A DNA stretch of 36,039 bases. Source: a virus. The stretch lies in IMG/VR virus record IMGVR_UViG_3300045988_047146; one strand, 5' to 3'. How positions within the stretch are numbered: position 1 is the stretch's first letter; every line of letters begins with the position of its first letter. A program made the translations under genes and the position numbers. The notes under the pieces were generated by a model that was given only the letters and a program-made list of their open reading frames with translations, was not told the origin of the DNA and made no database searches. This document shows positions 1 through 36,039 of the stretch, in pieces.

Positions 1-85
1 AATATCGAGGCGTGGCTCAGCTTGGTAGAGCGCTACATTAGGGATGTAGAGGTCGCAGGTTCAAATCCTGTCGCCTCGATTTTTA
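1..85 (+). repeat. Left copy of the direct repeat (candidate attL); full extent not visible
   Basis: Bases 1-85 are identical to 35955-36039. The copy starts at the window edge, so its true length is unknown. Confidence 0.8.
6..79 (+). tRNA. tRNA, probably tRNA-Pro (anticodon reads AGG in the canonical fold)
   Basis: 7-bp acceptor stem CGAGGCG/CGCCTCG, with C1:G72 as in bacterial tRNA-Pro. D-arm GCTCAGCTTGGTAGAGC, anticodon stem CTACA/TGTAG with loop TTAGGGA (G35 G36 G37), T-arm GCAGG-TTCAAAT-CCTGT. No encoded CCA. A34 is unusual and should be confirmed with tRNAscan-SE. Confidence 0.75.
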
Positions 86-156
86 TAAAAAATTCTTTCG
101 GAAACTTTTGAAAGATGAAAAAGTCAAGACTAAATTGCAAAAATTCATAAAAAAAT

Positions 157-1197
157 TCAAGTAAGACACGCGACGCCTTCCTGGAAAACGGCTTCTGCGG
201 TCCGGAAGCCCAGTATTTCACGGGGATAGTTATTGATCCAGTCTTCGACCTTTTGGATCGCTTTCGCTGTGACTTTCCGGAAGTCTGTTCCTTTCGGGAA
301 CCAACGGCGGATCATTCTATTCACATTTTCGTTTGATCCTCTTTCGTATGACGAATAGGGGTGACAATAGTATATCTTTGTCCTGTTGCCTTTGCGGCGA
401 CAGGACTTTTCCATTCCGGCACAGTCAGCGAATTCGGAACCGTTATCGACAGTGATCGTTCGAAAGATTTTGCTGAAATTTGCGCCGTATTCACGTTCAA
501 GGCTATCCAGGACGCGGACCACGCTTCGGGCGGTCTGGTCGCGCATAGGACGAATGATTTCCCGTCTGGACTTTCTTTCGGTCAGAACCAGAAGTGTTTT
601 CTTTGTTTTCTTCTTGCCTTCGACACAGTCCATTTCCCAGTCACCAACGACCGCGCGATCGTCGATTTCTTTCGGGCGGTTTTCGATACTGGTTCCAGCC
701 GGCGGCCGCTTCGCCCTCTTGACTTTGTTATACGGGCGTTTCTTTTGGCCTTTGACAGGAAGGTTCTTGTTCGTGACAGTCAAAAAGACGCCCTTGTCGA
801 TATAAGAATACAAGGTCGATTCACAGATCGACGTTTTGAATTCAAGGCCCTGTTCCTTAATTTCACCCAAGACGGCGGCCGGCGAATAACCGTCTTCGGC
901 GATTTTCTTTTCGATATGCTGGGCCAGTTCGTGGTCGTTCCCGATTTTCAAGTCCGGACCTTTTGCGGCCAGGTGTTCACGGTAAGCCGCTTCGGCCATT
1001 TCCGGACTGTATCTTTCTTCTTCGGTCAGGTCGGAATTCGTATGAATATAACGGCCACGCTTGATTTCGTTGTAGATCGTTTTCAGGTGAACGCCGATTT
1101 CGTCAGCGATTTCCTGTTTGTGGCGCTTGTCCTTTAACATTGTTTCTATTTTCAGCCTGTCAGTCCAGGACAGGTGTTTGAATCTGCGCTTTTTCAT
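157..1197 (-). CDS. IS30-family DDE transposase
   Basis: 346 aa with an N-terminal HTH, the DNGSEF motif and the C-terminal signature YYCHPYSSYERGSNENVNRMIRRWFPKGTDF typical of IS30 transposases. ATG start at 1197 with an AGGAGG ribosome-binding site. Confidence 0.85.
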   Translation of the reverse strand: MKKRRFKHLSWTDRLKIETMLKDKRHKQEIADEIGVHLKTIYNEIKRGRYIHTNSDLTEEERYSPEMAEAAYREHLAAKGPDLKIGNDHELAQHIEKKIAEDGYSPAAVLGEIKEQGLEFKTSICESTLYSYIDKGVFLTVTNKNLPVKGQKKRPYNKVKRAKRPPAGTSIENRPKEIDDRAVVGDWEMDCVEGKKKTKKTLLVLTERKSRREIIRPMRDQTARSVVRVLDSLEREYGANFSKIFRTITVDNGSEFADCAGMEKSCRRKGNRTKIYYCHPYSSYERGSNENVNRMIRRWFPKGTDFRKVTAKAIQKVEDWINNYPREILGFRTAEAVFQEGVACLT

Positions 1198-2637: not shown

Positions 2638-3558
2638 CTATGCTTTTTTCAGGTTTGCCGCATTGACGGCCGCTGTGACTGTCTTTCCGATACCAATGAC
2701 CACACGGTCGCCGTCGGCTTCGATCACGTCATATTTGTCATAATAGGTCTTGAAGGCTTTCCCTGTGTAGGTGACAGCTTTCAGGACCTTTACTTTATCA
2801 CCCTTCTTGAAAGACTGGGCGGCCTGGGTGTCTGCCGGAATTTTGATTTTCTGGCCGACGCGGATCAGGTTCGCGTTTGCGATCCTGTTATAAGCCGCGA
2901 TCTTCTGATAGGTCGTCCCGTACTTCTGGGCGATCTTCGACAGTGTTTCGCCAGCTTTGACAGTGTGGATCACTTCGCCAGTGGCCGGTTTATTCTCTGC
3001 CGGCTTTTCGGCACTGGCTCCCAGGCGGCGGTTGACTTCGGCCGCGATTTCACCGTGGCGCTTATACAGGTAGTCGCCAGGACAAGCCTTGTTTGCATAA
3101 TCGCGGTGAACGGTCATATTGCACCCGTTCAGGTGATTCATACGGTCCTTTTTGTTGGTGGACCACACAAGGCGTTTGATCCCGTTTCGCTTGCAGATGT
3201 CAGTCACCAGGTCAAGAAGCGCGGCGAACGCCTTTTCATTGACTGCGTAAGGGTGCTTTGTATCGGACGCGACTTCGATCGTGATCGCTCTGTTATCGTT
3301 GGACGCGGAAGAACTACACCAGGAACGGTCCTTTTCTTCCACATACATTCCGATTTTGCCGTCGTAGCCGATCCCATAGTTTGAAGACGCCTGTCTGGAA
3401 GTTGGCGCGAAGATGTTCCCCAGGGTTTCGACCGAACACTGGCCGACGACACAGTGAATCGTGATCGTGTCGATCGCGTGATTTCTGGGGCTGTTCTTGT
3501 TCGGGGAAATGCGCGTATAGTTTACAAGTTTGCTGTTACTCATTTTCGTTCCCTCCAT
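2638..3558 (-). CDS. Endolysin: N-acetylmuramoyl-L-alanine amidase (Amidase_2/PGRP) with LysM and a C-terminal binding domain
   Basis: 306 aa. An amidase_2-like N-terminal half, a LysM motif ([28 protein letters not shown]) and a C-terminal SH3-like segment. Confidence 0.85.
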
Positions 3559-4266: not shown

Positions 4267-4499
4267 CGGTTTTCCAGGTCCTCTATACGGTGATTCGCGA
4301 CCTTGATTTTTTCTTCAATAACGGCCGCCTGTTCTTCCAGTTTGAAGGTTCGTTCCACGACGGAATTGTGTTTGTCGACCTTCTTTTCAAGAAGTTCCAG
4401 ACGGTAGGCAATAAGGGCGGAACTTTTTCGGTTTGCGAAGTAGGTTCCGGCCAGTGTACCGATCAGCGACAGAATGCCGACAATGATTCCTTCGGTCAT
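4263..4499 (-). CDS. xhlA: XhlA-family cell-lysis (hemolysin-like) protein
   Basis: 78 aa with an N-terminal transmembrane helix and a C-terminal coiled coil. Sits upstream of the holin/amidase module. Confidence 0.65.
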   Translation of the reverse strand: MTEGIIVGILSLIGTLAGTYFANRKSSALIAYRLELLEKKVDKHNSVVERTFKLEEQAAVIEEKIKVANHRIEDLENR

Positions 4500-4966
4500 T
4501 TTGTCACCTCCGTCCAGCCATAGACGCCAGGCTCCCAGACGTTCGCGTCAATGTTAGATGTCCAGTGTTTCCCGTTGTGGGACACTTTGTCGCCGCTGTT
4601 ATAAGCGTCATGGGCGCCGATCGGCTGGGACCAGGCCGGCCATTCTTCCGTCGGATCACCGATTTTCTTCCAAAGGGAAGCGGTGGCGTCAGGCGTCCAG
4701 TCGGCTTGTGAAGTGTGGGCCTGAACACAGCGGAAAAGTTCACCGTTATACTGGCGGATATTGCCGACAGCATACGCCACAGGGTAAGCCCAGGACGCGA
4801 ACTGGCTGACGTTTTCCGTTGCGGTTGTGTCGTCGATCTGGCCGGCTTCGGCCAAAGTGACGAAGGCGATCGAAGTCGCGCGCAAGGCGGCATTGACAGG
4901 ATTTTGTTCTTCCTGGGCTTTTGCCTGGGCCATGCTCACGCTTTCGCATTGTGTAGGGTCAAACAT
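4496..4966 (-). CDS. Protein with tandem CBM5/12-like carbohydrate-binding repeats
   Basis: The start was moved to M47 (MFDPTQ), which has an AGGAGG ribosome-binding site. The upstream extension of the ORF is Arg-rich, out of character and likely spurious. Two repeats of the form YxxGxxVxYNGxxYxCxQAHTSQxxWTP...W (for example WSQPIGAHDAYNSGDKVSHNGKHWTSNIDANVWEPGVYGW). Confidence 0.6.
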   Translation of the reverse strand: MFDPTQCESVSMAQAKAQEEQNPVNAALRATSIAFVTLAEAGQIDDTTATENVSQFASWAYPVAYAVGNIRQYNGELFRCVQAHTSQADWTPDATASLWKKIGDPTEEWPAWSQPIGAHDAYNSGDKVSHNGKHWTSNIDANVWEPGVYGWTEVTK

Positions 4967-4985
4967 TTCGAATTCCTCCTTTCGT

Positions 4986-6692
4986 TTAGGCGAAACGGAT
5001 CGTCGCCTGGGTGATTTCGATTTCCTGGGTTCCCTTCGTGATATAGAAGCGATAGCCCAGGCCATAGCCTTTCGCGGCGGTCGTATTCGTGAAGACGTGG
5101 ACAAGTCTGTTCGCCTTGTCAGTGATGTCTACCCACACCGGCGAAGTGTCGAACGGGTTGTTCGTGACTTCCAGGTGAAGGGTTGCGTCTGCCGGAATCG
5201 TCGCCGGATAAAGGGAAACAAAGACCTTCTGAACCAGGGCGTCCGTATTGAACGCGCGCGCCGCCGCGATACGGCTGACGGTGCGGCTGAATGTGATCTT
5301 TCGCGTTGCGCTTCCGCCGGCGCTGTCGGTGGCCGTGATCGTCAGGACGTGGGTTCCGGAAAGAAGCGGAAGCCATACACTGGACAGGTTGACGGTATTC
5401 TGGGCGCCGCTGGTCGCGGTATAGGTGCGAAGCGTGATCGTCTGGGTTCCGTTGGTCAGTTTTTCCGTGACCGTGATCGTTTGCGTGGCCGCCTGGGCGT
5501 CTGTGACCGTGTACTGGTATGTAAACGGCGCTGTTTTTGCGCCCAGGTTTTGATCCGAACCGCTGATCATGGGCGGCGTGTTGTAGGAAATGGTTTTTGC
5601 CGATCCGGTGCAGTAACCGGATTCAAGGCCGTTCGCGTCGACTGCCTTCACGCGCGCCGTGTAAGTTGTGCCGGACGTCGGAACTGTGTCGGTGAAGGTC
5701 TTTGCCGTGGTGATCCCTAACTGGACATAAGCGCCGGAATCAATCTTCCTTTCCCAGACGTAGGAAATGGCGTCGCCCTCCGGATCGGTAGAACCGCCCG
5801 TCGAAAGAACCAGGCTGTTTCCGGCTTGCGGTGTGCCGTAGGAAATAGAAGAAGGATCAGACGGCGGCTGGTTCCACTGTAAGATATAGGCCCCGTCGGT
5901 GTCTGTTGAATCGGATACCAGATTCCCAGATTCCAAATACAAAGCCGGCCGAACGCCACGGTTGCCAAAGCACGCGTAGTCGTTGTACAGACTGCCGTCC
6001 GAGTAGACAATGCGCGCATAGCACGCGTTGCCGGCGTACGGGGTTCTAAGCCACCAATACCAATAAGAAGACGCGTTCAAGCTGGAATTTGTATATTCCG
6101 AATTGCTGACGGCTTCGGCGGTCGGGTAGCACTGGCGGCGCGCGGCGCTGGAAAAGTAGGACCACAGGGCCCCTTCGGCCACGCTATTTTCGTTGGACAG
6201 GCCGACTTCGGTATTTGACAGAAGAAAGACCTTTCGGGTAATGTCTTCATAACCGCCGCCGTCGGTGACGGTATTCTTTGCGACACGGATCACGGCGTCC
6301 AGGATAGCTTTTCGGAAGTCTGCTTCGAAGTTAGACAGGAATCCGGCTTCGGTGTCGTATTCGTTGTAGTTGCTCCACACGTTGGCGTTATTCGGTGGTG
6401 CGTCGTAGCTGTGACGCGCGGAATACCAGGACGCGGCCTGGCTGTTCAACCACTGGTCAATATTAGACTGGGAATAGCGGTTGTTTCCGTAGCTTCGGCG
6501 GTCACCGTTCGTGTTCGAAGGCTCCTTCGCGTCGAAGCATTTCAGAGTGATCATTTTCTCGGTCACCAGGCCCGTTCGGCCGTTGGCTGTGTCCTGGGTT
6601 CCCACGATCCACCTGATCACTTTCCCGTTGTATTTCGTGTTCGTCGACTTGACAACGCTTCCAACGGGCAAAGCGGATAGTAATTTTGCCAT
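4986..6692 (-). CDS. DGR target 1: putative receptor-binding/tail-fiber-like protein carrying VR1
   Basis: 568 aa. An N-terminal domain of about 255 aa ends in WYWWLRTPYAGNACYARIVYSDGSLYNDYACFGNRGVRPAL, which is encoded by VR1. This is followed by Ig-like, Thr/Ser-rich beta repeats. ATG at 6692 with ribosome-binding site GGAGGG. Overlaps the RT 3' end by 190 bp. Confidence 0.8.
   Translation of the reverse strand: MAKLLSALPVGSVVKSTNTKYNGKVIRWIVGTQDTANGRTGLVTEKMITLKCFDAKEPSNTNGDRRSYGNNRYSQSNIDQWLNSQAASWYSARHSYDAPPNNANVWSNYNEYDTEAGFLSNFEADFRKAILDAVIRVAKNTVTDGGGYEDITRKVFLLSNTEVGLSNENSVAEGALWSYFSSAARRQCYPTAEAVSNSEYTNSSLNASSYWYWWLRTPYAGNACYARIVYSDGSLYNDYACFGNRGVRPALYLESGNLVSDSTDTDGAYILQWNQPPSDPSSISYGTPQAGNSLVLSTGGSTDPEGDAISYVWERKIDSGAYVQLGITTAKTFTDTVPTSGTTYTARVKAVDANGLESGYCTGSAKTISYNTPPMISGSDQNLGAKTAPFTYQYTVTDAQAATQTITVTEKLTNGTQTITLRTYTATSGAQNTVNLSSVWLPLLSGTHVLTITATDSAGGSATRKITFSRTVSRIAAARAFNTDALVQKVFVSLYPATIPADATLHLEVTNNPFDTSPVWVDITDKANRLVHVFTNTTAAKGYGLGYRFYITKGTQEIEITQATIRFA
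5941..6044 (-). repeat. DGR variable repeat VR1
   Basis: 104 bp, ungapped against the TR at 7927-8030, with 14 mismatches. Every mismatch falls at a TR plus-strand T, which is an A on the coding strand. In the protein, Asn codons of the TR appear as Y/C/I/S/D/F/R. Confidence 0.85.
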
Positions 6693-7758
6693 AGGTTAAT
6701 CCCTCCAATTCATTCTTGAACAGGTTGAAGAACAGGTCGTCCGTCTTCCTGATCAAGTGGTAACTGTTGCCGTGTTCGGCGTGACCGGTCCACGAAGAAT
6801 AGGATTGAAGAATCGTTTCGAAGTCGATCCGGCCTTCGTCCAGAAGGTGACGGTATTTCTTCAATTTCCTTCGGATTCGGTTCTTGCTTTCACGGCGGAC
6901 TTTTCTGACGACTTTTCCGGTGTCGGTCAGATAGGTCCTAAATCCCAGGAAGTCGATTCCCTGGGTTAAGGGGAAAATGGCCGTCTTTTGATTCAATTCC
7001 AGTCCTAAAGGGACCAGATACTTCTTGATTTCTTCCAGACAATAACGAAGATAGTCCTTGTCAGGGTGAATCAAATAGAAGTCGTCCATGTAGCGGCCGT
7101 ACATTTTGATTCCCAGACGTTCCTTGATCATGTGATCCATTCCGGACAGGTACAGAACGGCGAACCACTGTGAAGTATGGTTTCCGATCGGGATTCCTGG
7201 TCCTTCGGTGGAATCTATGATCATATCCAGAAGCCACAAGACGTCGCGGTCTTTGATAAGCCGGCGAAGCTGTTCTTTCAGAACGTCGTGATTGATACTG
7301 TAAAAATACTTTCGAATATCGCATTTCAGGACCCAGCCGTCCGCCCCGTTCTGTCGGTAGTACCTCGACATGAAATATTTCAGGCGGTCAAGTCCGAAGT
7401 GCGTTCCTTTGCCTTTCTGGCTTGCGTAGTTGTCGTATATGAAAGTTTTCGAAAGGTACGGTTCCAGGACATTATCGCAAAGACTGTGCTGAACGATTTT
7501 GTCGCGGAAGCTGTTATACATGATCAGTCGTTCCTTCGGTTCTTTCACAATGAAGCAGTTATAAGGCGACAGGCGGTATTTGTGGGCCGATAACATGAAA
7601 TGAACGAACATAAGGTTTTCAAGGACGTTCACTTCGTATTTGCAGACCGCATATTTCCACCGTTTACCTTTGCGCGCTTCTGTATACGATTGATATAGAC
7701 TGTTAAAGTCGATCACCTTCGCGAAGTCAGAAAGATTCAATGTCTGGTCTTCGCTCAA
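6502..7758 (-). CDS. DGR reverse transcriptase
   Basis: Motifs IPIGNHTSQ (DGR-type SQ motif), YMDDFYLI (YxDD catalytic box) and a thumb-like segment LNQKTAIFPLTQGIDFLGF. TTG start with ribosome-binding site AAGGAGG. Lies adjacent to the TR. Confidence 0.85.
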   Translation of the reverse strand: MSEDQTLNLSDFAKVIDFNSLYQSYTEARKGKRWKYAVCKYEVNVLENLMFVHFMLSAHKYRLSPYNCFIVKEPKERLIMYNSFRDKIVQHSLCDNVLEPYLSKTFIYDNYASQKGKGTHFGLDRLKYFMSRYYRQNGADGWVLKCDIRKYFYSINHDVLKEQLRRLIKDRDVLWLLDMIIDSTEGPGIPIGNHTSQWFAVLYLSGMDHMIKERLGIKMYGRYMDDFYLIHPDKDYLRYCLEEIKKYLVPLGLELNQKTAIFPLTQGIDFLGFRTYLTDTGKVVRKVRRESKNRIRRKLKKYRHLLDEGRIDFETILQSYSSWTGHAEHGNSYHLIRKTDDLFFNLFKNELEGLTYGKITIRFARWKRCQVDEHEIQRESDQVDRGNPGHSQRPNGPGDRENDHSEMLRREGAFEHER

Positions 7759-7926
7759 AATAAAAATCCTCCTTGACGCTTACAGTCCGGCCGTCACAGT
7801 AGGAAGGCCATTCGTCGTCAATCTTGTGTTTACCGTGGCCTTTCCGGCACTTCGGAAGGAAATGACCTCCTTTGTTGGGGTACTCTGTTTTCAGGTTCTT
7901 CGCCTTACTCGGTCGCGTTTTCCACC

Positions 7927-8030
7927 AAATCCGGCCGAACGCCATTGTTGCCATTGTACGCGTTGTTGTTGTTCAGACTGCCGTCCGTGTTGACATTGCG
8001 CGCATTGTACGCGTTGCCGGCGTACGGGGT
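7927..8030 (-). repeat. DGR template repeat (TR)
   Basis: Non-coding in its own context (an in-frame stop lies just upstream). The coding-strand sense encodes PYAGNAYNARNVNTDGSLNNNNAYNGNNGVRPD and contains 30 adenines in AAC/AAT-rich codons. 18 of those adenines are the only variable sites in VR1 and VR2. The GC-rich 3' end GGCGTTCGGCCGG is identical in all three copies. Confidence 0.85.
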
Positions 8031-8053
8031 AACAGGTCATTCCCTAAATATCA

Positions 8054-8512
8054 TTACACGCTTTCCGGTATAGGGTCCGACGGGGCGATCGCTTCGGCGG
8101 TGTCCTGTTCGGCCTTGTACCATTTTGCGGTCATGAACTTAACGTCCAGGGTCAACTTCGTCCAATAGTCAAAGGTGTCCTTGTCGATATAGCTTCGCTT
8201 CTTCGATAATTCGATCATGTGAAGCAGTTTCTTGCACTCGGTCAAGGCGGCCCTTTGTAAACGAAGCCGTTCTGTCCGGTCCGCTTCTGTGCGGATCGGA
8301 AATATTTCGTTTGCTTCCAGTAAGCCGTCGTATATGGCCATGACGTGGCCCTGAATCTTGTTTGTGATCGAAAAACGGACGCGCTTCGGAAAGCGTTTCG
8401 CGTTGTCGGTCAGGTCCAGGGTGTAGTCGATCAGTTTTTCGGCCACCGGAAGAACGTGAAGCGGACTGTCATTTTTATTCGAAGTCCGCTGGTAGTTTCT
8501 TCTTGTTCCCAT
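8054..8512 (-). CDS. avd: Avd-like accessory variability determinant (four-helix-bundle protein)
   Basis: Basic, helical protein of about 150 aa immediately upstream of the TR. The region LPVAEKLIDYTLDLTDNAKRFPKRVRF resembles the four-helix-bundle/Avd family. The start is uncertain (M24 chosen; the ORF extends to 8581). Confidence 0.55.
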   Translation of the reverse strand: MGTRRNYQRTSNKNDSPLHVLPVAEKLIDYTLDLTDNAKRFPKRVRFSITNKIQGHVMAIYDGLLEANEIFPIRTEADRTERLRLQRAALTECKKLLHMIELSKKRSYIDKDTFDYWTKLTLDVKFMTAKWYKAEQDTAEAIAPSDPIPESV

Positions 8513-8732
8513 AGATACACCTTCGCTTTCGGATATTTTCGACGGTTTCCGGATCGCCGGAATAGTCGAAGCCATAATCACGAAGGACGACGGTTTCTTC
8601 CTGTCCTTCGTAGGTTACGCCACACAGGACCACGCTGTCGCCCTCACAGTGGCCACAGACGGGCCGAATTTCCGTGAATAGGTTCGATATAAGGCAAGAC
8701 GTTTCCGACGGCGTGGCGCCGATTCTGGTCAT
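8475..8732 (-). CDS. Small Cys-containing hypothetical protein
   Basis: 85 aa with a CxHC...C motif. Lies between the tail fiber gene and avd and overlaps the avd start region. Confidence 0.3.
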   Translation of the reverse strand: MTRIGATPSETSCLISNLFTEIRPVCGHCEGDSVVLCGVTYEGQEETVVLRDYGFDYSGDPETVENIRKRRCIYGNKKKLPADFE

Positions 8733-9475
8733 AAATAAAGACGGTTCAGGGATTGATCCAGAATACCTTCCGGAATTCCTGTTCCGTCGTAGCCTTTCCA
8801 GTATTGAAGCTGTGCAGGAACGAAAGTGTGTGTGACGGTTGTTCCGGTGAATCCGGTGTTTAACTGTTCAAGGATCGACTGAATGTCGTTGTCCTGGCGC
8901 CGCTGAACCTGTTCCGTGGTTTCGCCGGTCGTTTCGTTGATCGTTGTTGCGGCCTGGGTATGAAGCACAGGCGCGGCGTATGCGGTCATTTGCGCGGTTG
9001 TCACGAAGGAACCGACGCCCACCTGGACAGATACGGCCGCCGCTTCCTGGTTGGTGATAAAGACGGCCAGGTCGTGAATGTGGACCGTGTCGGCGTCCTC
9101 TTCAAAGGTTGTCGCCGGAAGGACGTTGTCACTGTCTTCGCCGTCAAGCCAGCCATAGCAGAAAAGAATTTCGTTTCCGCTGATGTCCAGGCCGAAGACG
9201 CCGATTTCCCTGATCCAGACATTCGATTCCAGACCTTCGTTTGTCACCTGTACCGGAATTTGCATGATCGAAGGCGAACCTTCGACCAGTTCCTTTTCGG
9301 ACAGGTTGGCGCTGACGTTTTCCACGTTTACAAGATCGGTCAGTGTATTCGGGCTGGCCTGGGCGACGCCGCTTCCGGCGGCCGCGCGTGTCAGTATCAA
9401 TTTCTGTCCGGACGCGATAAGGGCCGTTAGGGCTTCGCTTCCGCCGTCCGTGACAATGGACTTGAATTTTGCCAT
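8729..9475 (-). CDS. Tail fiber protein with a tail-collar fibre-like N-terminus
   Basis: 248 aa. The N-terminus MAKFKSIVTDGGSEALTALIASGQKLILTRAAAGSG resembles the phage tail-collar fibre domain. Follows the baseplate genes. Confidence 0.65.
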   Translation of the reverse strand: MAKFKSIVTDGGSEALTALIASGQKLILTRAAAGSGVAQASPNTLTDLVNVENVSANLSEKELVEGSPSIMQIPVQVTNEGLESNVWIREIGVFGLDISGNEILFCYGWLDGEDSDNVLPATTFEEDADTVHIHDLAVFITNQEAAAVSVQVGVGSFVTTAQMTAYAAPVLHTQAATTINETTGETTEQVQRRQDNDIQSILEQLNTGFTGTTVTHTFVPAQLQYWKGYDGTGIPEGILDQSLNRLYL

Positions 9476-9488
9476 TCGTTTTTCCTCC

Positions 9489-10016
9489 TTACGTTGCCGG
9501 CGTGTATTTGTGCCGGTTCATTGTAGCCATAGCGGAACAGGCGGCCGTTTTGGCCGGTTGGTCGTCTTGTGGAATATCCGTCCGCAAGCGAAGAACCAGA
9601 TTCGCCGGAATCATTTGTCCCAGGGTTGCCGCCAATGCGTCGCGTTGGGCGTAGCCTTCCAGGCGGATTCTGATATATAGATCGTAGGCGTTTTCGTTTA
9701 GGGTGACTGTGAAGTCTTCGCTGACCGTTGCAAGGTATTTCAAAAGGGTCCTGTAAGTATAGGGAAGCTGATCCAGGTACTTAATCAGGATTCGGTCGCG
9801 GCGGTCCTGTACTGTGTCCCCAGGCGCCGCAGAAAGCCCCAGAATCTTTTCCCAGCGTTCGCACCCATATTCGGACAGGGACACCAGAAAAAAGTCGTCA
9901 GCGGCCGATTTTACGTCACTGACGGCATTTTCGAATTCGGGTTGTTCCGCGTTGGCGATCTGCTGAAACTCGATCAGTTCTTGCAGATAGCGCGGCCAGT
10001 ATTCTTTAAGAACCAT
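9489..10016 (-). CDS. Tail protein, XkdU/YmfQ-like (DUF2313)
   Basis: 175 aa. Position and composition match PBSX XkdU-like baseplate-associated proteins. Confidence 0.5.
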   Translation of the reverse strand: MVLKEYWPRYLQELIEFQQIANAEQPEFENAVSDVKSAADDFFLVSLSEYGCERWEKILGLSAAPGDTVQDRRDRILIKYLDQLPYTYRTLLKYLATVSEDFTVTLNENAYDLYIRIRLEGYAQRDALAATLGQMIPANLVLRLRTDIPQDDQPAKTAACSAMATMNRHKYTPAT

Positions 10017-11910: not shown

Positions 11911-12867
11911 TTACACCACCTTTAATTTCAAGGACATTGTTTCTTTCAAAAGGTCGTGCGTGGCTTCTTCGACTATGAAGAAGGATTTCACGCCCACGGC
12001 GCCGATCCCGATATACAAGGCGCGGCCGGCTCTGACTGACAGGTCCGCGATTGCGCTGACGCTGAAAGATCGCTTCGGTCTGTTGTATAGTTCCAACATT
12101 TGTCCGCCGCGTTTCTTGATCTGGGCTTCGTTCATGTCTTCGTCAACCACTTCATAGTCTTGCAGAATACCCCACAAGGTCATATTTTTAGAATCCTGGA
12201 AGATATAAACGTCACGTTTTCCGGTCTTCTTGTTGTCCTTGACCAGTTTGATCTTGTTGTAGGCTTCGGAATCAATTTCTGATTCGTAGGTGAAGCCTGT
12301 CGCCAGACTGCCGTCGCCGACAAAAAGGTCCAGTTTTGCCGTTTCGACGTCTGTCAAGGTCAGTTTCCCGAAGTTATCCCACAGGACGAACATTTTTCCT
12401 GTATTGATCAGGGTGTAGTCGATAGCCTTCAAGACAATGTCGAAAAGCGTCTGGCCGTCTTCAATCATAGACGGTATAGAATATCCGGTGTTTGCCAGGC
12501 TTCCGGTTTTCAATTTGAAGTCTTCGGCGATCTGCTTCAATACCTGATCCGCACGTTTCCCCTTGAAAACATAGGTGTCCTTGTTTTTCTTCAAATACCA
12601 GGTCTGATCGTAAGCCGTGATCTGAACCTGTTCCTTTTCGTTCTGGCTGATTTTTACGACGTAGCCATAAAACAGTCCGGTTTTATCGTCTAACAGGGTG
12701 ACGATTCCGCCGTGGCTCCACTGTATTTCGTCGTTGACAATGGCGGTCAGTTCCAGGGAAGCGGGGGAACCGGACCGTTTTGTCGACCATTTCGCGCCAC
12801 TGACAAGCGTCGTTATATCGAACGCCGCGCCTGTGACGTTATTCTGGTATTGAATACGAATGGCCAT
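11911..12867 (-). CDS. XkdQ-like / late control gene D-like tail protein
   Basis: 318 aa, following the LysM tail protein as in PBSX. Confidence 0.55.
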   Translation of the reverse strand: MAIRIQYQNNVTGAAFDITTLVSGAKWSTKRSGSPASLELTAIVNDEIQWSHGGIVTLLDDKTGLFYGYVVKISQNEKEQVQITAYDQTWYLKKNKDTYVFKGKRADQVLKQIAEDFKLKTGSLANTGYSIPSMIEDGQTLFDIVLKAIDYTLINTGKMFVLWDNFGKLTLTDVETAKLDLFVGDGSLATGFTYESEIDSEAYNKIKLVKDNKKTGKRDVYIFQDSKNMTLWGILQDYEVVDEDMNEAQIKKRGGQMLELYNRPKRSFSVSAIADLSVRAGRALYIGIGAVGVKSFFIVEEATHDLLKETMSLKLKVV

Positions 12868-13523
12868 TATGGAATTGTGAAAACCTGGCCAGGGTAGATC
12901 AGATTCGGGTTCTTTCCGATCGTCCCCTTGTTGGCGTTATAGATTTTTGTATAGTCGCTTCCCTTGCCATAGAATTTCTTCGCGATATTCCACAGGCAGT
13001 CGCCTTTTTTGACCGTATAGGTTTTCGATTTCTTTTCAGGCTTTCCGGCCCTGGCCGGTTCCTGGGTTTTCGCCGGTGTGTTCTTCTTTTCCGGAAGGAC
13101 AATTTTCTTCGGCGACGTGTCTTTCCATTCGTACAGTTTGATCGTATAGTACAGGTCGCCCAGTTCGCCGGACCGTTCTTCGTATTCGAAGGATTCGATC
13201 CCCATTCGAATATTACACTCCAGGTCTGTTCCTGTTATCAGGAAGCGGACCGGCGTTTTGCTGTCCCTGGCTTTCTGGATTGCCTGAATAATAGAAATAG
13301 GGTCCCGAACCTGTCCGGTAGTGTACGGCGCGGAATCGGCCGGAAAGAAACTTTCCCAGGACAGAATCCGAAGGCCCTTTTTACGTAAAAGAAGGACTTC
13401 GCCCAGGTCAAGCACTGTTACACGCTCATTTTTCCCAGGCGAAGACACGTTCAGTTTCGCCGGAAGGACGGGAATGTTGATTTCCCGTCCACCGACGATT
13501 AGTGTCATTCGGTAGTTGCTCAT
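12867..13523 (-). CDS. LysM-domain tail protein (XkdP-like)
   Basis: 218 aa. C-terminal LysM motif YTVKKGDCLWNIAKKFYGKGSDYTKIYNAN. Confidence 0.7.
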   Translation of the reverse strand: MSNYRMTLIVGGREINIPVLPAKLNVSSPGKNERVTVLDLGEVLLLRKKGLRILSWESFFPADSAPYTTGQVRDPISIIQAIQKARDSKTPVRFLITGTDLECNIRMGIESFEYEERSGELGDLYYTIKLYEWKDTSPKKIVLPEKKNTPAKTQEPARAGKPEKKSKTYTVKKGDCLWNIAKKFYGKGSDYTKIYNANKGTIGKNPNLIYPGQVFTIP

Positions 13524-30367: not shown

Positions 30368-30590
30368 TGTTTCGACCTCCTTTCAGGCTGTCCGGCATTT
30401 TGGACGGAAGGTCCGCCTGGTGGATCAGGACAAGGTCGCTTCTATCCACCAGGGAACCGTCGTGAAAGTGCGCGAAGGCGCCACTGTTCAGGTTGACCGC
30501 TGTGTTCGGCTTCGTGGTCTTGATCAGGGCTTGTCCCTGATGTTCGAAGACGTCGCCGGCGGCGCATTGCTTAAAAGTCGTCTTCTTCAT
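30360..30590 (-). CDS. Hypothetical small protein (start re-set to MKKTTF)
   Basis: The longer ORF begins MATMAFGR inside VR2 in a different frame, which is a repeat artefact. The internal ATG at 30590 lies just after the stop of DGR target 2. Confidence 0.3.
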   Translation of the reverse strand: MKKTTFKQCAAGDVFEHQGQALIKTTKPNTAVNLNSGAFAHFHDGSLVDRSDLVLIHQADLPSKMPDSLKGGRNNG

Positions 30591-31272
30591 CGTTGTCACC
30601 GTCTTCCTGGCCTTCGGCGATTCTGCGAAGGACTTCTTCGACAAGCTGTTTCGAAGTGAATTCGGCCAACAGGGCGGAAGTGGAAAGTTCAACCTGGTCT
30701 GGCTCCACGGATAACGTGATCCCAGATTCCACGAAGAAAGCCGGCCGAACGCCATAGTTGCCACTGTACGCGTGGCCGTTGTTCAGACTGCCGCCCGTGT
30801 AGACAGAGCGCGCATAGTACGCGTAGCCGGCGTACGGGGTGATCAGCCACCACCAGTCGTCAAGTTCAAGTAGATCCTGATCGGCGTATTTCTCATACAT
30901 GGTTTGCGTCAGAAGCGCGATCTTTGCCTGAATAATTCCGTAACCTTCGCCGCCCTCATGGTCAGCCAGGGACCAGTCGGCCGTCAAGATGTCCTTTGAA
31001 CGGATAGGGCCTTCGGCCTGGTCGAATGTAGCCAGGAATTCGGTATTCAGTTCACGGTTAAGGTTTGAGAAGCGCCAGTCGTTCGGATTTGCGGCCGGCT
31101 TTTCCGGTCTGGTCTTGAACGGCTGATCCGCGAAGTGGCGGTCAGCGATACAGGTATCGGCGATCAGAAGGGTTCTTCCGTCGGCAAAGTGTTCCAGGAC
31201 GCGGACGTCAATCGGTCCGGCGTTGAATACGGTTCCAGGTGCAAGGTCTTTCAATTTTGCGCGTACAGTCAT
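30571..31272 (-). CDS. DGR target 2: standalone paralogue of the target-1 N-terminal domain, carrying VR2
   Basis: 233 aa. Same architecture as target 1 aa 1-255 (KLKDLAPGTVF..., NLNRELNTEFL..., WWWLITPYAGYAYYARSVYTGGSLNNGHAYSGNYGVRPAF). Acidic tail EDGDNDEEDDF. Confidence 0.8.
   Translation of the reverse strand: MTVRAKLKDLAPGTVFNAGPIDVRVLEHFADGRTLLIADTCIADRHFADQPFKTRPEKPAANPNDWRFSNLNRELNTEFLATFDQAEGPIRSKDILTADWSLADHEGGEGYGIIQAKIALLTQTMYEKYADQDLLELDDWWWLITPYAGYAYYARSVYTGGSLNNGHAYSGNYGVRPAFFVESGITLSVEPDQVELSTSALLAEFTSKQLVEEVLRRIAEGQEDGDNDEEDDF
30737..30840 (-). repeat. DGR variable repeat VR2 (remote)
   Basis: 104 bp, ungapped against the TR, with 12 mismatches. All mismatches fall at TR coding-strand adenines. 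Lies 22.8 kb from the TR. Confidence 0.85.
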
Positions 31273-35240: not shown

Positions 35241-35497
35241 TTCTTGACCTCCTTTCTTTTCGGACCACTGCCGCGACGGCGAATGTTTTCCTGGTAGGTT
35301 CTTTGTGCCAGTACCGGATCATAGGCCGGTCGCTGGTTCTGATCCAGTTTCCCAGTCGCGCCGCGTTTCAGTTCGACATACAGTGTTCGAAGGGCGACGC
35401 CCACTTCGTCAGAAATGTCGGAAATGGACATTCCTTTCGCGTACAGGGCCGCGATTTTCTTTCTGTTGTCGAAGGTGATAGACTTATAAACTGCCAC
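35237..35497 (-). CDS. HTH DNA-binding protein (possible early regulator)
   Basis: 86 aa. Contains IAALYAKGMSISDISDEVGVALRTLY. GTG start. Confidence 0.45.
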   Translation of the reverse strand: MAVYKSITFDNRKKIAALYAKGMSISDISDEVGVALRTLYVELKRGATGKLDQNQRPAYDPVLAQRTYQENIRRRGSGPKRKEVKK

Positions 35498-35798: not shown

Positions 35799-35899
35799 TT
35801 TTAGGGTCCTCCGTGGTAAAAAAATAAGTTGCGAAGGCTCATTTGAACCTTGCAACTTAATACTACTCCTCACAAAACTTTTGAAAGAAGAAAAAAGAA

Positions 35900-35928
35900 T
35901 TGACAGGAATATAATCCTGTGGTATCAT
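35900..35928 (+). promoter_or_regulatory. Near-consensus sigma-70 promoter (TTGACA-17-TGgTATCAT) facing the right tRNA copy
   Basis: TTGACA at 35900-35905, a 17-bp spacer, an extended -10 TGgTATCAT ending at 35928. Followed by the hairpin CCGCT-GAATA-AGCGG (35936-35950) and the tRNA at 35960. Confidence 0.5.
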
Positions 35929-35954
35929 AATTAAGCCGCTGAATAAGCGGTAGG

Positions 35955-36039
35955 AATATCGAGGCGTGGCTCAGCTTGGTAGAGCGCTACATTAGGGATG
36001 TAGAGGTCGCAGGTTCAAATCCTGTCGCCTCGATTTTTA
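35955..36039 (+). repeat. Right copy of the direct repeat (candidate attR)
   Basis: Identical to 1-85. Truncated by the window end. Confidence 0.8.
35960..36033 (+). tRNA. Second identical copy of the tRNA (probably tRNA-Pro)
   Basis: Same 74-nt sequence as 6-79. Confidence 0.75.

What the first reader, a model, noticed from the sequence alone, without database searches (positions are those of the whole stretch)
4986..8512. Diversity-generating retroelement in the tail-fiber region: avd, TR, RT and a VR-bearing target gene
Three near-identical 104-bp copies exist in the window. The non-coding copy at 7927-8030 lies between an Avd-like gene (8054-8512) and a reverse-transcriptase gene (6502-7758) that carries the DGR-type IGNxxSQ and YMDD motifs. 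The copy at 5941-6044 lies inside the next gene. Aligned without gaps, the TR and VR1 differ at 14 positions, and every one is a T on the plus strand of the TR. That is an adenine on the minus-strand coding strand shared with the RT. There is no substitution at any of the 74 other bases. The TR sense strand is packed with AAC/AAT codons (PYAGNAYNARNVNTDGSLNNNNAYNGNNGVRPD). These appear in VR1 as ...NACYARIVYSDGSLYNDYACFGNRGVRPA. This is the signature of adenine-specific mutagenic retrohoming and would permit receptor-binding (tropism) switching of the prophage.
Basis: partly seen in the sequence, partly recalled or inferred. Interest (0 to 1): 0.9.

Follow-up and report, generated by a model that had tools for sequence, protein, structure and literature searches.

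The report
Two-target DGR in a gut prophage
This is a genuine diversity-generating retroelement in a Clostridia prophage: it rewrites a 104-base patch in two lectin-like phage genes. The same architecture has already been described in gut phages, so this is a clean new example rather than a new kind of system.

Summary
The non-coding template repeat (TR, 7927-8030, sense on the minus strand) lies between avd (8054-8512) and a reverse transcriptase gene (6502-7758). It differs from VR1 (5941-6044) at 14 positions and from VR2 (30737-30840) at 12. All 26 differences are at TR adenines (P about 2e-9 and 5e-8).

The RT matches the Bordetella phage DGR RT far better than group II intron or retron RTs, and it carries IGNHTSQ and YMDD. 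Avd models as a four-helix bundle that superposes on bAvd.

In 12 related prophages, 199 of 206 TR-VR mismatches are at adenines, and each VR follows its own TR allele. Among 77 homologues of target 2, the 11 AAY-templated residues each carry 10-13 different amino acids.

Both targets carry DUF6273. Target 1 is a "tentaclin", 46% identical to that of phage nd12, with the VR in mid-gene. Target 2 is a 233-aa protein in the replication module. This two-target layout was published in 2023-2026. The host phage is an IS30-transposase ("IScream"-type) myovirus-like prophage.

Verdict: a real and probably active DGR, and a new member of a known kind. Tropism switching is plausible but unproven.

The parts
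8054..8512 (-). avd, the accessory variability determinant (152 aa)
   Evidence: NCBIfam DivGenRetAVD matches at E 2e-7 over profile positions 1-104/104, and Pfam 23S_rRNA_IVP at E 1e-4. Both are below the curated cut-offs. Homologues of 152 aa confirm the ATG at 8512. The AF2 model (pLDDT 82) is a four-helix bundle. Its best PDB folds are 2rld and 2gsc (IVP family), and it superposes on bAvd 4dwl/8ub7_B at TM 0.83-0.88 normalised to the target, rmsd 2.0-2.4.
7927..8030 (-). Template repeat (TR), non-coding, with 30 adenines in 11 AAY codons plus 8 single-A codons
   Evidence: An identical TR is present in IMG/VR contigs L001 and L002.
7931..7943 (-). G+C-rich 3' end of the TR (GGCGTTCGGCCGG). 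The same 13-mer ends VR1 (5945-5957) and VR2 (30741-30753). The next base is A in every TR and C in every VR, after which homology ends. This is a candidate IMH*/IMH boundary.
   Evidence: The functional assignment is an inference by analogy with BPP-1.
7759..7926 (-). TR-RT spacer, a candidate Sp part of the DGR RNA
   Evidence: It is nearly invariant among relatives whose genomes are only 72-82% identical to the window overall. Seven predicted pairs keep pairing through double changes, mainly in L028. There is no Rfam match. The evidence is suggestive only (7 sequences).
6502..7758 (-). DGR reverse transcriptase (418-aa ORF; the conserved part ends near residue 350). IGNHTSQ lies at 7168-7188 and YMDD at 7081-7092.
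   Evidence: Pfam RVT_1 matches at E 3e-18. The best PDB match is 8ub7_A, the Bordetella DGR RT, at E 9e-40 over residues 15-337. The next best are a 'retron-type' RT chain (5hhj) at 4e-11 and group II intron RTs at 7e-11 to 7e-9. The C-terminal tail overlaps the target gene, with a variable stop position in relatives.
4986..6692 (-). Target 1 (568 aa): a tentaclin-type protein with an N-terminal DUF6273 domain followed by Ig/PKD-like domains
   Evidence: Pfam DUF6273 matches at E 2.8e-38 (residues 42-254), with a weak K319L-like PKD match. It is 46% identical over 98% of its length to the phage nd12 tentaclin and 42% to that of nd4.
5941..6044 (-). VR1, residues 217-251 of target 1, at the C-terminal edge of the DUF6273 domain
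   Evidence: There are 14 A-site differences from the TR, giving 12 amino-acid changes. VR1 differs among genomes that are 97-99% identical in the flanks.
30571..31272 (-). Target 2 (233 aa): DUF6273 only, with an acidic C-terminal tail. It lies between RusA and small unknown ORFs in the replication/early module.
   Evidence: Pfam DUF6273 matches at E 4e-15. It has 1950 homologues.
30737..30840 (-). VR2, residues 145-179 of target 2
   Evidence: There are 12 A-site differences from the TR, giving 10 amino-acid changes. Across five genomes there are 22 variable columns, all at TR adenines and all at codon positions 1-2. Entropy is 2.5-3.3 bits at AAY positions in 77 homologues.
8729..9475 (-). 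Tail-fibre N-terminal protein immediately upstream of the cassette (context)
   Evidence: PHROG 7037 'tail fiber protein' matches at E 1.2e-38. Pfam Phage_tail_fib matches weakly.

Best explanation
The region is a diversity-generating retroelement with one template and two targets. It is carried by a temperate, contractile-tailed, IS30-transposase prophage of gut Clostridia. The cassette, read on the minus strand, is tail fibre - avd - TR - spacer - RT - target 1. Inferred mechanism, by analogy with Bordetella phage BPP-1: the TR plus spacer is transcribed, and the RT-Avd complex copies the TR RNA into cDNA while misincorporating opposite template adenines. The cDNA then replaces the homologous 104-nt VR in target 1 and in the remote target 2. 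The shared G+C-rich 3' end and the TR-specific flank would make the transfer one-way. All 30 TR adenines sit at codon positions 1-2 (11 AAY codons plus 8 single-A codons). The TR can therefore specify about 6e17 peptides without ever creating a stop codon, on the C-terminal edge of the DUF6273 domain; homologues of this domain are reported to have a C-type-lectin fold. What is shown here: the anatomy, the adenine-only mismatch pattern, RT and Avd identity, and VR-restricted, adenine-restricted hypervariability with TR-VR concerted evolution across relatives. What is inferred: the biochemical steps, directionality through the 3' boundary, present-day activity of this particular copy, and the biological purpose (ligand or receptor switching).
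For: All 26 of 26 mismatches are at TR adenines, and none of the 74 non-A positions differs in either pair. The TR is non-coding and lies between avd and the RT. The RT's best solved relative is the BPP-1 DGR RT at E 9e-40, against 4e-11 or weaker for retron and group II RTs, and it carries IGNHTSQ and YMDD. The Avd fold matches bAvd. No group II intron or retron RNA family was found. In 14 cognate TR-VR pairs from 11 relatives plus the window, found through RT homology or VR-flank patterns, 199 of 206 mismatches are at adenines. VRs also share the non-A substitutions of their own TR allele in L028, L004 and L019. Flanks diverge by 1-3% while VRs diverge by 10-25%. In 77 target-2 homologues, AAY-templated residues carry 10-13 amino acids each (H 2.5-3.3 bits), against a mean of 0.32 bits outside the VR. 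Both VRs map to the C-terminal end of Pfam DUF6273, as reported for published DGR targets (PMC11792537; 10.1101/2024.10.15.618418).
Against: There are no reads from the source sample, so activity of this copy is not shown directly. The Avd HMM hits are below curated thresholds. Sequence-profile comparisons with bAvd and with Mtd found nothing. My structure model of target 2 failed (pLDDT 45), so the C-lec fold rests on the literature for homologues. No significant hairpin follows either VR (z -0.9 and -0.55). Four of the first relatives were found with a pattern that fixed the non-A positions. The later sets do not have that bias.
Confidence: 0.93

Rival explanations
1. The DGR is real, but it does not serve host-range (tropism) switching of the phage. 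Target 1 would instead be a Hoc-like or tentaclin adhesin for mucus, host glycans or other microbes, possibly also benefiting the lysogen. Target 2 would be a non-tail protein.
For: [quoted passage not shown] Target 2 sits among replication and recombination genes, not tail genes. Baykov et al. leave open binding to bacterial receptors or to intestinal or immune cells (PMC10743442).
Against: Target 1 follows directly after the baseplate and tail-fibre genes and precedes the lysis cassette, which is the usual place for a receptor-binding protein. C-lec DGR targets such as Mtd are receptor-binding proteins (established knowledge).
Confidence: 0.35
2. The element is a fossil DGR. The VRs were diversified in the past, but this copy no longer homes.
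For: There is no direct activity data for this genome. The window's TR has lost three adenines relative to the commoner allele. A close relative (L024) has a TR with only 14 adenines left, which shows that such elements can decay.
Against: The RT, Avd and TR are intact, and the RT motifs are preserved. There is not one non-adenine mismatch in 2 x 74 positions, whereas post-inactivation drift would add them. An identical TR is found in other contigs whose VRs differ.
Confidence: 0.1
3. The three copies are an ordinary dispersed repeat or paralogous domain segment that diverged by normal mutation, and the RT belongs to a retron or a group II intron.
For: Both VR genes are paralogous DUF6273 proteins. 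NCBIfam's best-scoring RT model is the group II intron maturase (104 bits).
Against: That score is far below the model's cut-off of 300. The PDB ranking puts the DGR RT about 29 orders of magnitude ahead. No intron or retron RNA was found. The adenine-only pattern has P about 1e-9 and recurs in relatives. Outside the 104 nt the two target proteins align at only 29% identity (tblastn), and the DNA flanking the copies is unrelated.
Confidence: 0.01

Closest known systems
Two-target 'tentaclin' DGRs of gut phages nd12 and nd4 (Baykov et al. 2023, PMC10743442; GenBank OR777946, OR777945)
   Same: The layout is the same: avd - TR - RT - tentaclin, followed by lysis genes and an IS30-family transposase. 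Target 1 is about 570 aa, with an N-terminal DUF6273/C-lec domain, Ig-like domains and the VR near the 5' part of the gene. There is a remote DUF6273-only target 2 next to the early/methyltransferase region, and the TR encodes a YNGNN motif.
   Different: Amino-acid identity to nd12 is only 46% (tentaclin), 62% (RT), 40% (Avd) and 31% (target 2). There is no detectable similarity in the sheath, portal or terminase and no megablast match to any GenBank phage. The RT ORF tail overlaps the tentaclin gene by 190 nt here, against 16 nt in nd12.
Bordetella phage BPP-1 DGR (mtd-avd-TR-brt), the prototype
   Same: It shares the adenine-specific TR-to-VR information transfer, an RT of the same clade (E 9e-40), an Avd four-helix bundle, a TR between avd and the RT, and a cassette lying between the tail genes and the lysis genes.
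   Different: In BPP-1 the single target lies upstream of avd with the VR at its extreme C-terminus. Here the adjacent target is downstream of the RT, its VR is in mid-gene, and there is a second target 22.8 kb away. There is no detectable sequence similarity of the targets to Mtd or of Avd to bAvd. No significant hairpin follows the VRs.
DGRs of Faecalibacterium prophages (Toutatis, Brigit, Mushu, Lelie, CP11; PMC11792537; 10.1101/2024.10.15.618418)
   Same: They have large and small DUF6273 targets with the VR at the C-terminal end of DUF6273. A Hoc-like target lies downstream of the RT, and a second VR gene lies about 17 kb away.
   Different: Target 1 is only 33-36% identical to them over part of its length. 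The host lineage differs (Clostridia MAG / Senimuribacter).
IScream phages (IS30-bound prophages; Nature 2025, PMC12823448)
   Same: There is an intact outward-facing IS30-family transposase at one end (157-1197) and a truncated IS30 remnant at the other (about 35270-35488). Insertion occurs at many chromosomal sites, a circular form exists, and the hosts are Clostridia.
   Different: This concerns the backbone, not the finding. In the passages I retrieved by term search, that paper mentions DGRs only in its discussion of possible host-range determinants, not in connection with IScream phages.

Membership tests
Diversity-generating retroelement (DGR) | TR/VR repeat pair whose differences are confined to adenines of the TR | tested here: met
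   There are 14/14 (VR1) and 12/12 (VR2) mismatches at TR adenines, and none of the 74 non-A positions differs in either pair; P 1.8e-9 and 5e-8.
Diversity-generating retroelement (DGR) | Reverse transcriptase of the DGR clade, with an [I/L/V]GxxxSQ motif and YxDD | tested here: met
   The best PDB match is the BPP-1 DGR RT 8ub7_A at E 9e-40. Retron and group II RTs match at 4e-11 or weaker. IGNHTSQ is at residues 191-197 and YMDD at 223-226. No dedicated DGR-RT HMM was available in the libraries.
Diversity-generating retroelement (DGR) | Non-coding TR adjacent to the RT gene | tested here: met
   The TR at 7927-8030 lies 168 nt upstream of the RT start and 23 nt downstream of the avd stop. 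The overlapping 75-aa ORF has no family hit and is frame-broken in relatives.
Diversity-generating retroelement (DGR) | Accessory protein Avd (four-helix bundle, 23S rRNA IVP family) | tested here: met
   NCBIfam DivGenRetAVD matches at E 2e-7 over the full profile length but below the cut-off. The AF2 four-helix bundle superposes on 4dwl/8ub7_B at TM 0.83-0.88 normalised to the target. Sequence-profile searches against bAvd were negative.
Diversity-generating retroelement (DGR) | VR lies at the C-terminal end of a C-type-lectin-fold (or Ig-fold) ligand-binding domain of the target | tested here: inconclusive
Diversity-generating retroelement (DGR) | IMH-type G+C-rich 3' boundary and a downstream hairpin or cruciform at the VR | tested here: inconclusive
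   A shared GGCGTTCGGCCGG 13-mer is followed by A in every TR and C in every VR. The folds downstream of the VRs are no better than shuffles (z -0.93 and -0.55).
Diversity-generating retroelement (DGR) | Ongoing mutagenic homing (VR hypervariability in populations, with an invariant TR) | tested here: met
   This was tested by proxy across public assemblies. 199 of 206 cognate mismatches are at A, and VRs follow their own TR allele. VR divergence is 10-25% against 1-3% in the flanks. Entropy peaks at exactly the AAY positions. Read-level data from the source sample could not be tested.
Tentaclin family (Baykov et al. 2023) | [quoted passage not shown] | tested here: met
   DUF6273 covers residues 42-254, with a weak PKD/Ig match at 291-357. 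Identity to the nd12 tentaclin is 46% over 98% of the length and to nd4 42%. The C-terminal Ig consensus of the family was not examined.
Group II intron or retron | Associated structured RNA (intron domains, or msr/msd) and an RT that passes the family model | tested here: not met
   Rfam at gathering threshold finds only the two tRNAs. The NCBIfam group_II_RT_mat score is 104 against a cut-off of 300, and retron_St85_RT scores 42 against 235.
IScream (IS30-bound) prophages | Outward-facing IS30-family transposase at one prophage end, a degenerate IS30 remnant at the other, and integration at varied sites | tested here: met
   rve + HTH_38 at 157-1197, 63% identical to the nd12 'IS30 family transposase'. 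An HTH remnant lies at about 35270-35488 (E 2e-9). The identical transposase is found next to 8 different host genes. An end-to-end junction with a 2-nt spacer is present in L005.

The most novel reading that the evidence does not exclude
Target 2 may not be a virion receptor-binding protein at all. It is a 233-aa DUF6273 protein with an acidic ...EEDDF tail, encoded between RusA and the DNA methyltransferase in the replication/early module. It could be an early-expressed, possibly intracellular or secreted, diversified binder, for example one that counters variable host defences or acts on competing phages or cells. One TR would then co-diversify a structural adhesin and a non-structural effector. 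In an IS30-transposing phage found in many host contexts, that pairing could underlie an unusually broad host range.
Probability: 0.08. Interest if true: 0.6.

Novelty: new member of a known kind. Interest (0 to 1): 0.2.

Why it matters
It is a very clean, fully anatomised DGR with two targets, in a prophage lineage that is extremely common in human-gut assemblies. The identical transposase is indexed in 6,743 blocks of the assembly collection, and target 2 has 1,950 homologues. It adds a third, divergent lineage to the tentaclin-type DGRs. It also links them to IS30-mobilised ('IScream') phages, which is relevant to how temperate gut phages combine promiscuous integration with programmable ligand binding. 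It does not change what is known about how DGRs work.

Tried and rejected
- **GenBank phages:** megablast of 25 kb against GenBank phages gave only one short 78% match, so there is no annotated close relative.
- **Avd by sequence:** the Avd sequence and an Avd profile found nothing meaningful in the PDB. hhalign of the Avd profile against bAvd was negative. Only the fold comparison worked.
- **Target 2 structure:** the AF2 model had pLDDT 45, so no fold search was run on it. hhalign of the target-2 profile against BPP-1 Mtd was negative. The only PDB sequence hit was a weak match to the DUF6273 N-terminal domain of an IgA protease, 9qa6. Target 1 alone had no PDB hit.
- **Hairpin after the VRs:** DNA folds downstream of the VRs are not better than shuffles.
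- **Promoters and terminators:** the scan of 4400-9600 found no more sites than the shuffles.
- **Rfam:** there is no match in the cassette.
- **Circular genome with a terminal repeat:** I considered that the identical 85-nt window ends meant a circular phage genome. I rejected this because relatives end at 116 and 35874 and are inserted elsewhere.
- **The 75-aa ORF (7727-7954):** I considered it a possible gene and rejected it.


Full report
**Observation.**

- The window holds three copies of a 104-nt sequence, at 7927-8030, 5941-6044 and 30737-30840.
- Read on the minus strand, the copy at 7927-8030 (TR) differs from the copy at 5941-6044 (VR1) at 14 positions and from the copy at 30737-30840 (VR2) at 12.
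- All 26 differences are at adenines of the TR, and none of the 74 non-adenine positions differs in either pair.
- With 30 A in 104 nt, the chance that all mismatches fall on A is 1.8e-9 for VR1 and 5e-8 for VR2.
- Homology ends sharply on both sides.
- In the VR reading frame, all 30 TR adenines sit at codon positions 1 or 2: 11 AAY codons plus 8 single-A codons. Adenine substitution can therefore give about 6e17 peptides and never a stop codon.

**Genes of the cassette.**

- On the minus strand the order is tail-fibre N-terminal protein (8729-9475), avd (8054-8512), TR, a 168-nt spacer, RT (6502-7758), then target 1 (4986-6692). A small ORF, a holin-like gene and an endolysin follow.
- The RT has Pfam RVT_1. 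Its best solved relative is the Bordetella phage DGR RT, 8ub7, at E 9e-40 over residues 15-337. Retron and group II intron RTs reach only 4e-11 or weaker.
- The RT carries the DGR-type IGNHTSQ motif and YMDD. No NCBIfam RT model reaches its cut-off. Rfam finds no intron or retron RNA.
- Avd matches NCBIfam DivGenRetAVD over the whole profile, though below threshold. It models confidently as a four-helix bundle. The model superposes on IVP-family proteins and on bAvd (4dwl, 8ub7_B) at TM 0.83-0.88 normalised to the target.
- Sequence-profile comparisons with bAvd failed.

**Targets.**

- Both VR-bearing genes carry Pfam DUF6273, and both VRs map to the C-terminal edge of that domain.
- Target 1 (568 aa) continues for 317 residues after the VR, with Ig/PKD-like sequence. 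It is 46% identical over 98% of its length to the 'tentaclin' of phage nd12 and 42% to that of nd4. It is more distantly related to the 'Hoc-like' proteins of Faecalibacterium phages.
- Target 2 (233 aa, 30571-31272) is a DUF6273-only protein with an acidic tail. It lies between RusA and small unknown ORFs upstream of a DNA methyltransferase, far from the tail genes.
- No further DUF6273 gene or repeat copy exists in the window.

**Evidence for activity from relatives.**

- A pattern search with the TR adenines masked found identical TRs and new VRs in IMG/VR. That search fixes the non-A positions and is therefore biased.
- I then collected relatives without that bias: by VR-flank patterns, by RT homology in GTDB genomes and by whole-protein homology.
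- In 14 cognate TR-VR pairs from the window and 11 relatives, 199 of 206 mismatches are at TR adenines.
- Where the TR allele differs at non-adenine sites (L028, L004, L019), the VRs of the same genome carry the same differences. This is the concerted evolution expected from homing.
- Between genomes whose 1.2-kb flanks differ by 1-3%, the VRs differ by 10-25%.
- Among 77 target-2 homologues, the 11 AAY-templated residues each show 10-13 different amino acids (2.5-3.3 bits). The mean outside the VR is 0.32 bits, and residues templated by A-free codons stay nearly invariant.

**Other anatomy.**

- All TRs and VRs end in GGCGTTCGGCCGG. The next base is A in every TR and C in every VR, after which the sequences diverge. 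This is a plausible IMH*/IMH boundary.
- No significant hairpin follows the VRs.
- The TR-RT spacer is almost invariant among relatives whose genomes are only 72-82% identical to the window. It shows a few compensatory pair changes, consistent with a structured Sp RNA, but only seven sequences were compared.
- The RT ORF runs 128-191 nt into the target-1 gene in all close relatives, with a variable stop position. The tail is probably unselected read-through.

**Context.**

- The window is a complete prophage of the contractile-tail, PBSX/Xkd-like type. It encodes terminase, portal, sheath, tape measure, baseplate, lysis and replication modules.
- Its true ends are 116 and 35874. Relatives in a Clostridia MAG and in Senimuribacter sp. 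DSM 106208 lose homology at 116 and 106 respectively, and run into unrelated host genes.
- The integrase is an IS30-family DDE transposase. The other end carries a truncated IS30 remnant.
- The identical transposase lies beside eight different host genes in eight long contigs.
- One IMG/VR contig joins the two ends with a 2-nt spacer.
- This matches the 'IScream' prophage class.

**Comparison with what is known.**

- The layout here is avd-TR-RT followed by a tentaclin target with a mid-gene VR, plus a remote DUF6273-only second target. It was described for phages nd4 and nd12 in 2023, for a Toutatisvirus hotspot in 2024 and for Faecalibacterium prophages.
- The present element is a divergent member. 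Identity to nd12 is 62% for the RT, 46% for the tentaclin, 40% for Avd and 31% for target 2, on a different structural backbone. There is no close relative in GenBank phages.
- Relative to the BPP-1 prototype it differs in gene order, VR position and number of targets.

**Verdict.**

- This is a real, intact and most probably active DGR. It is a new member of a known kind.
- The claim of tropism switching is reasonable but untested. The ligand and the virion location of both targets are unknown, and adhesion to non-host ligands is a live alternative.

Noticed in passing
window 1-115 and 35875-36039: The two window ends are identical over 85 nt, and each holds a tRNA-Pro with the unusual anticodon AGG. 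These ends are host flank, not phage. A 14-nt direct repeat, AAACTTTTGAAAGA (102-115 and 35875-35888), brackets the prophage. It is probably a target-site duplication. The right flank has a near-consensus promoter ahead of the tRNA. The prophage likely sits between tandem tRNA-Pro copies, which would make the contig look circular.
   Followed up: partly
window 157-1197 (-), about 35270-35488 (-); L005 10042-10045; L041-L048: The integrase is an IS30-family DDE transposase. A truncated IS30 HTH remnant lies at the other end, and the phage ends read TG...CA. One IMG/VR contig joins the ends with a 2-nt spacer. The identical transposase is found next to 8 different host genes. This is the 'IScream' prophage class (PMC12823448), here carrying a DGR.
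   Followed up: yes
L024 9729-9832 (Senimuribacter sp. DSM 106208 prophage, 98.5% identical to the window): The copy at the TR position has only 14 adenines. Sixteen of the canonical TR adenines are replaced, yet it keeps the TR-type 3' flank GGCCGGATTT. The TR itself seems to have been overwritten by mutagenised cDNA or converted from a VR. That would cripple further diversification in this cultured strain.
   Followed up: partly
window 8009, 8018, 8024 (TR): The window's TR allele (shared with L001 and L002) has T, G and T where most relatives' TRs have A: 30 adenines against 32-34. In genomes with the A-rich allele the VRs vary at these extra positions. In the window both VRs carry T, G and T.
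   Followed up: yes
window 6502-6692: The RT ORF continues 190 nt into the target-1 gene in another frame. The overlap is 128-191 nt in relatives, with a variable stop, against 16 nt in nd12. The tail looks unselected.
   Followed up: yes
L001 (IMGVR_UViG_3300008599_000162) against window 4986-8581: The avd-TR-RT segment is 100% identical to the window, but the tentaclin gene is only about 79% identical. Its VR has 4 non-adenine mismatches to the TR. This indicates recombinational replacement of the target gene next to an unchanged DGR core.
   Followed up: partly
window 30571-30640 (C-terminus of target 2): Target 2 ends in a strongly acidic tail (...EGQEDGDNDEEDDF) that is conserved in its homologues. 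It recalls the protein-interaction tails of SSB-type proteins. Its function is unknown.
   Followed up: no
window 7759-7926: The TR-RT spacer is more conserved than the neighbouring coding DNA across relatives that are 72-82% identical overall. It contains a predicted long hairpin (TTGACG...CGTCAA around GGCC...GGCC) with compensatory changes in L028. There is no Rfam family for it.
   Followed up: partly
window 12867-13523 and 2638-3558: There are two LysM-containing proteins. One is an XkdP-like tail-associated protein after the tape measure. The other is the amidase/LysM endolysin in the lysis cassette.
   Followed up: no
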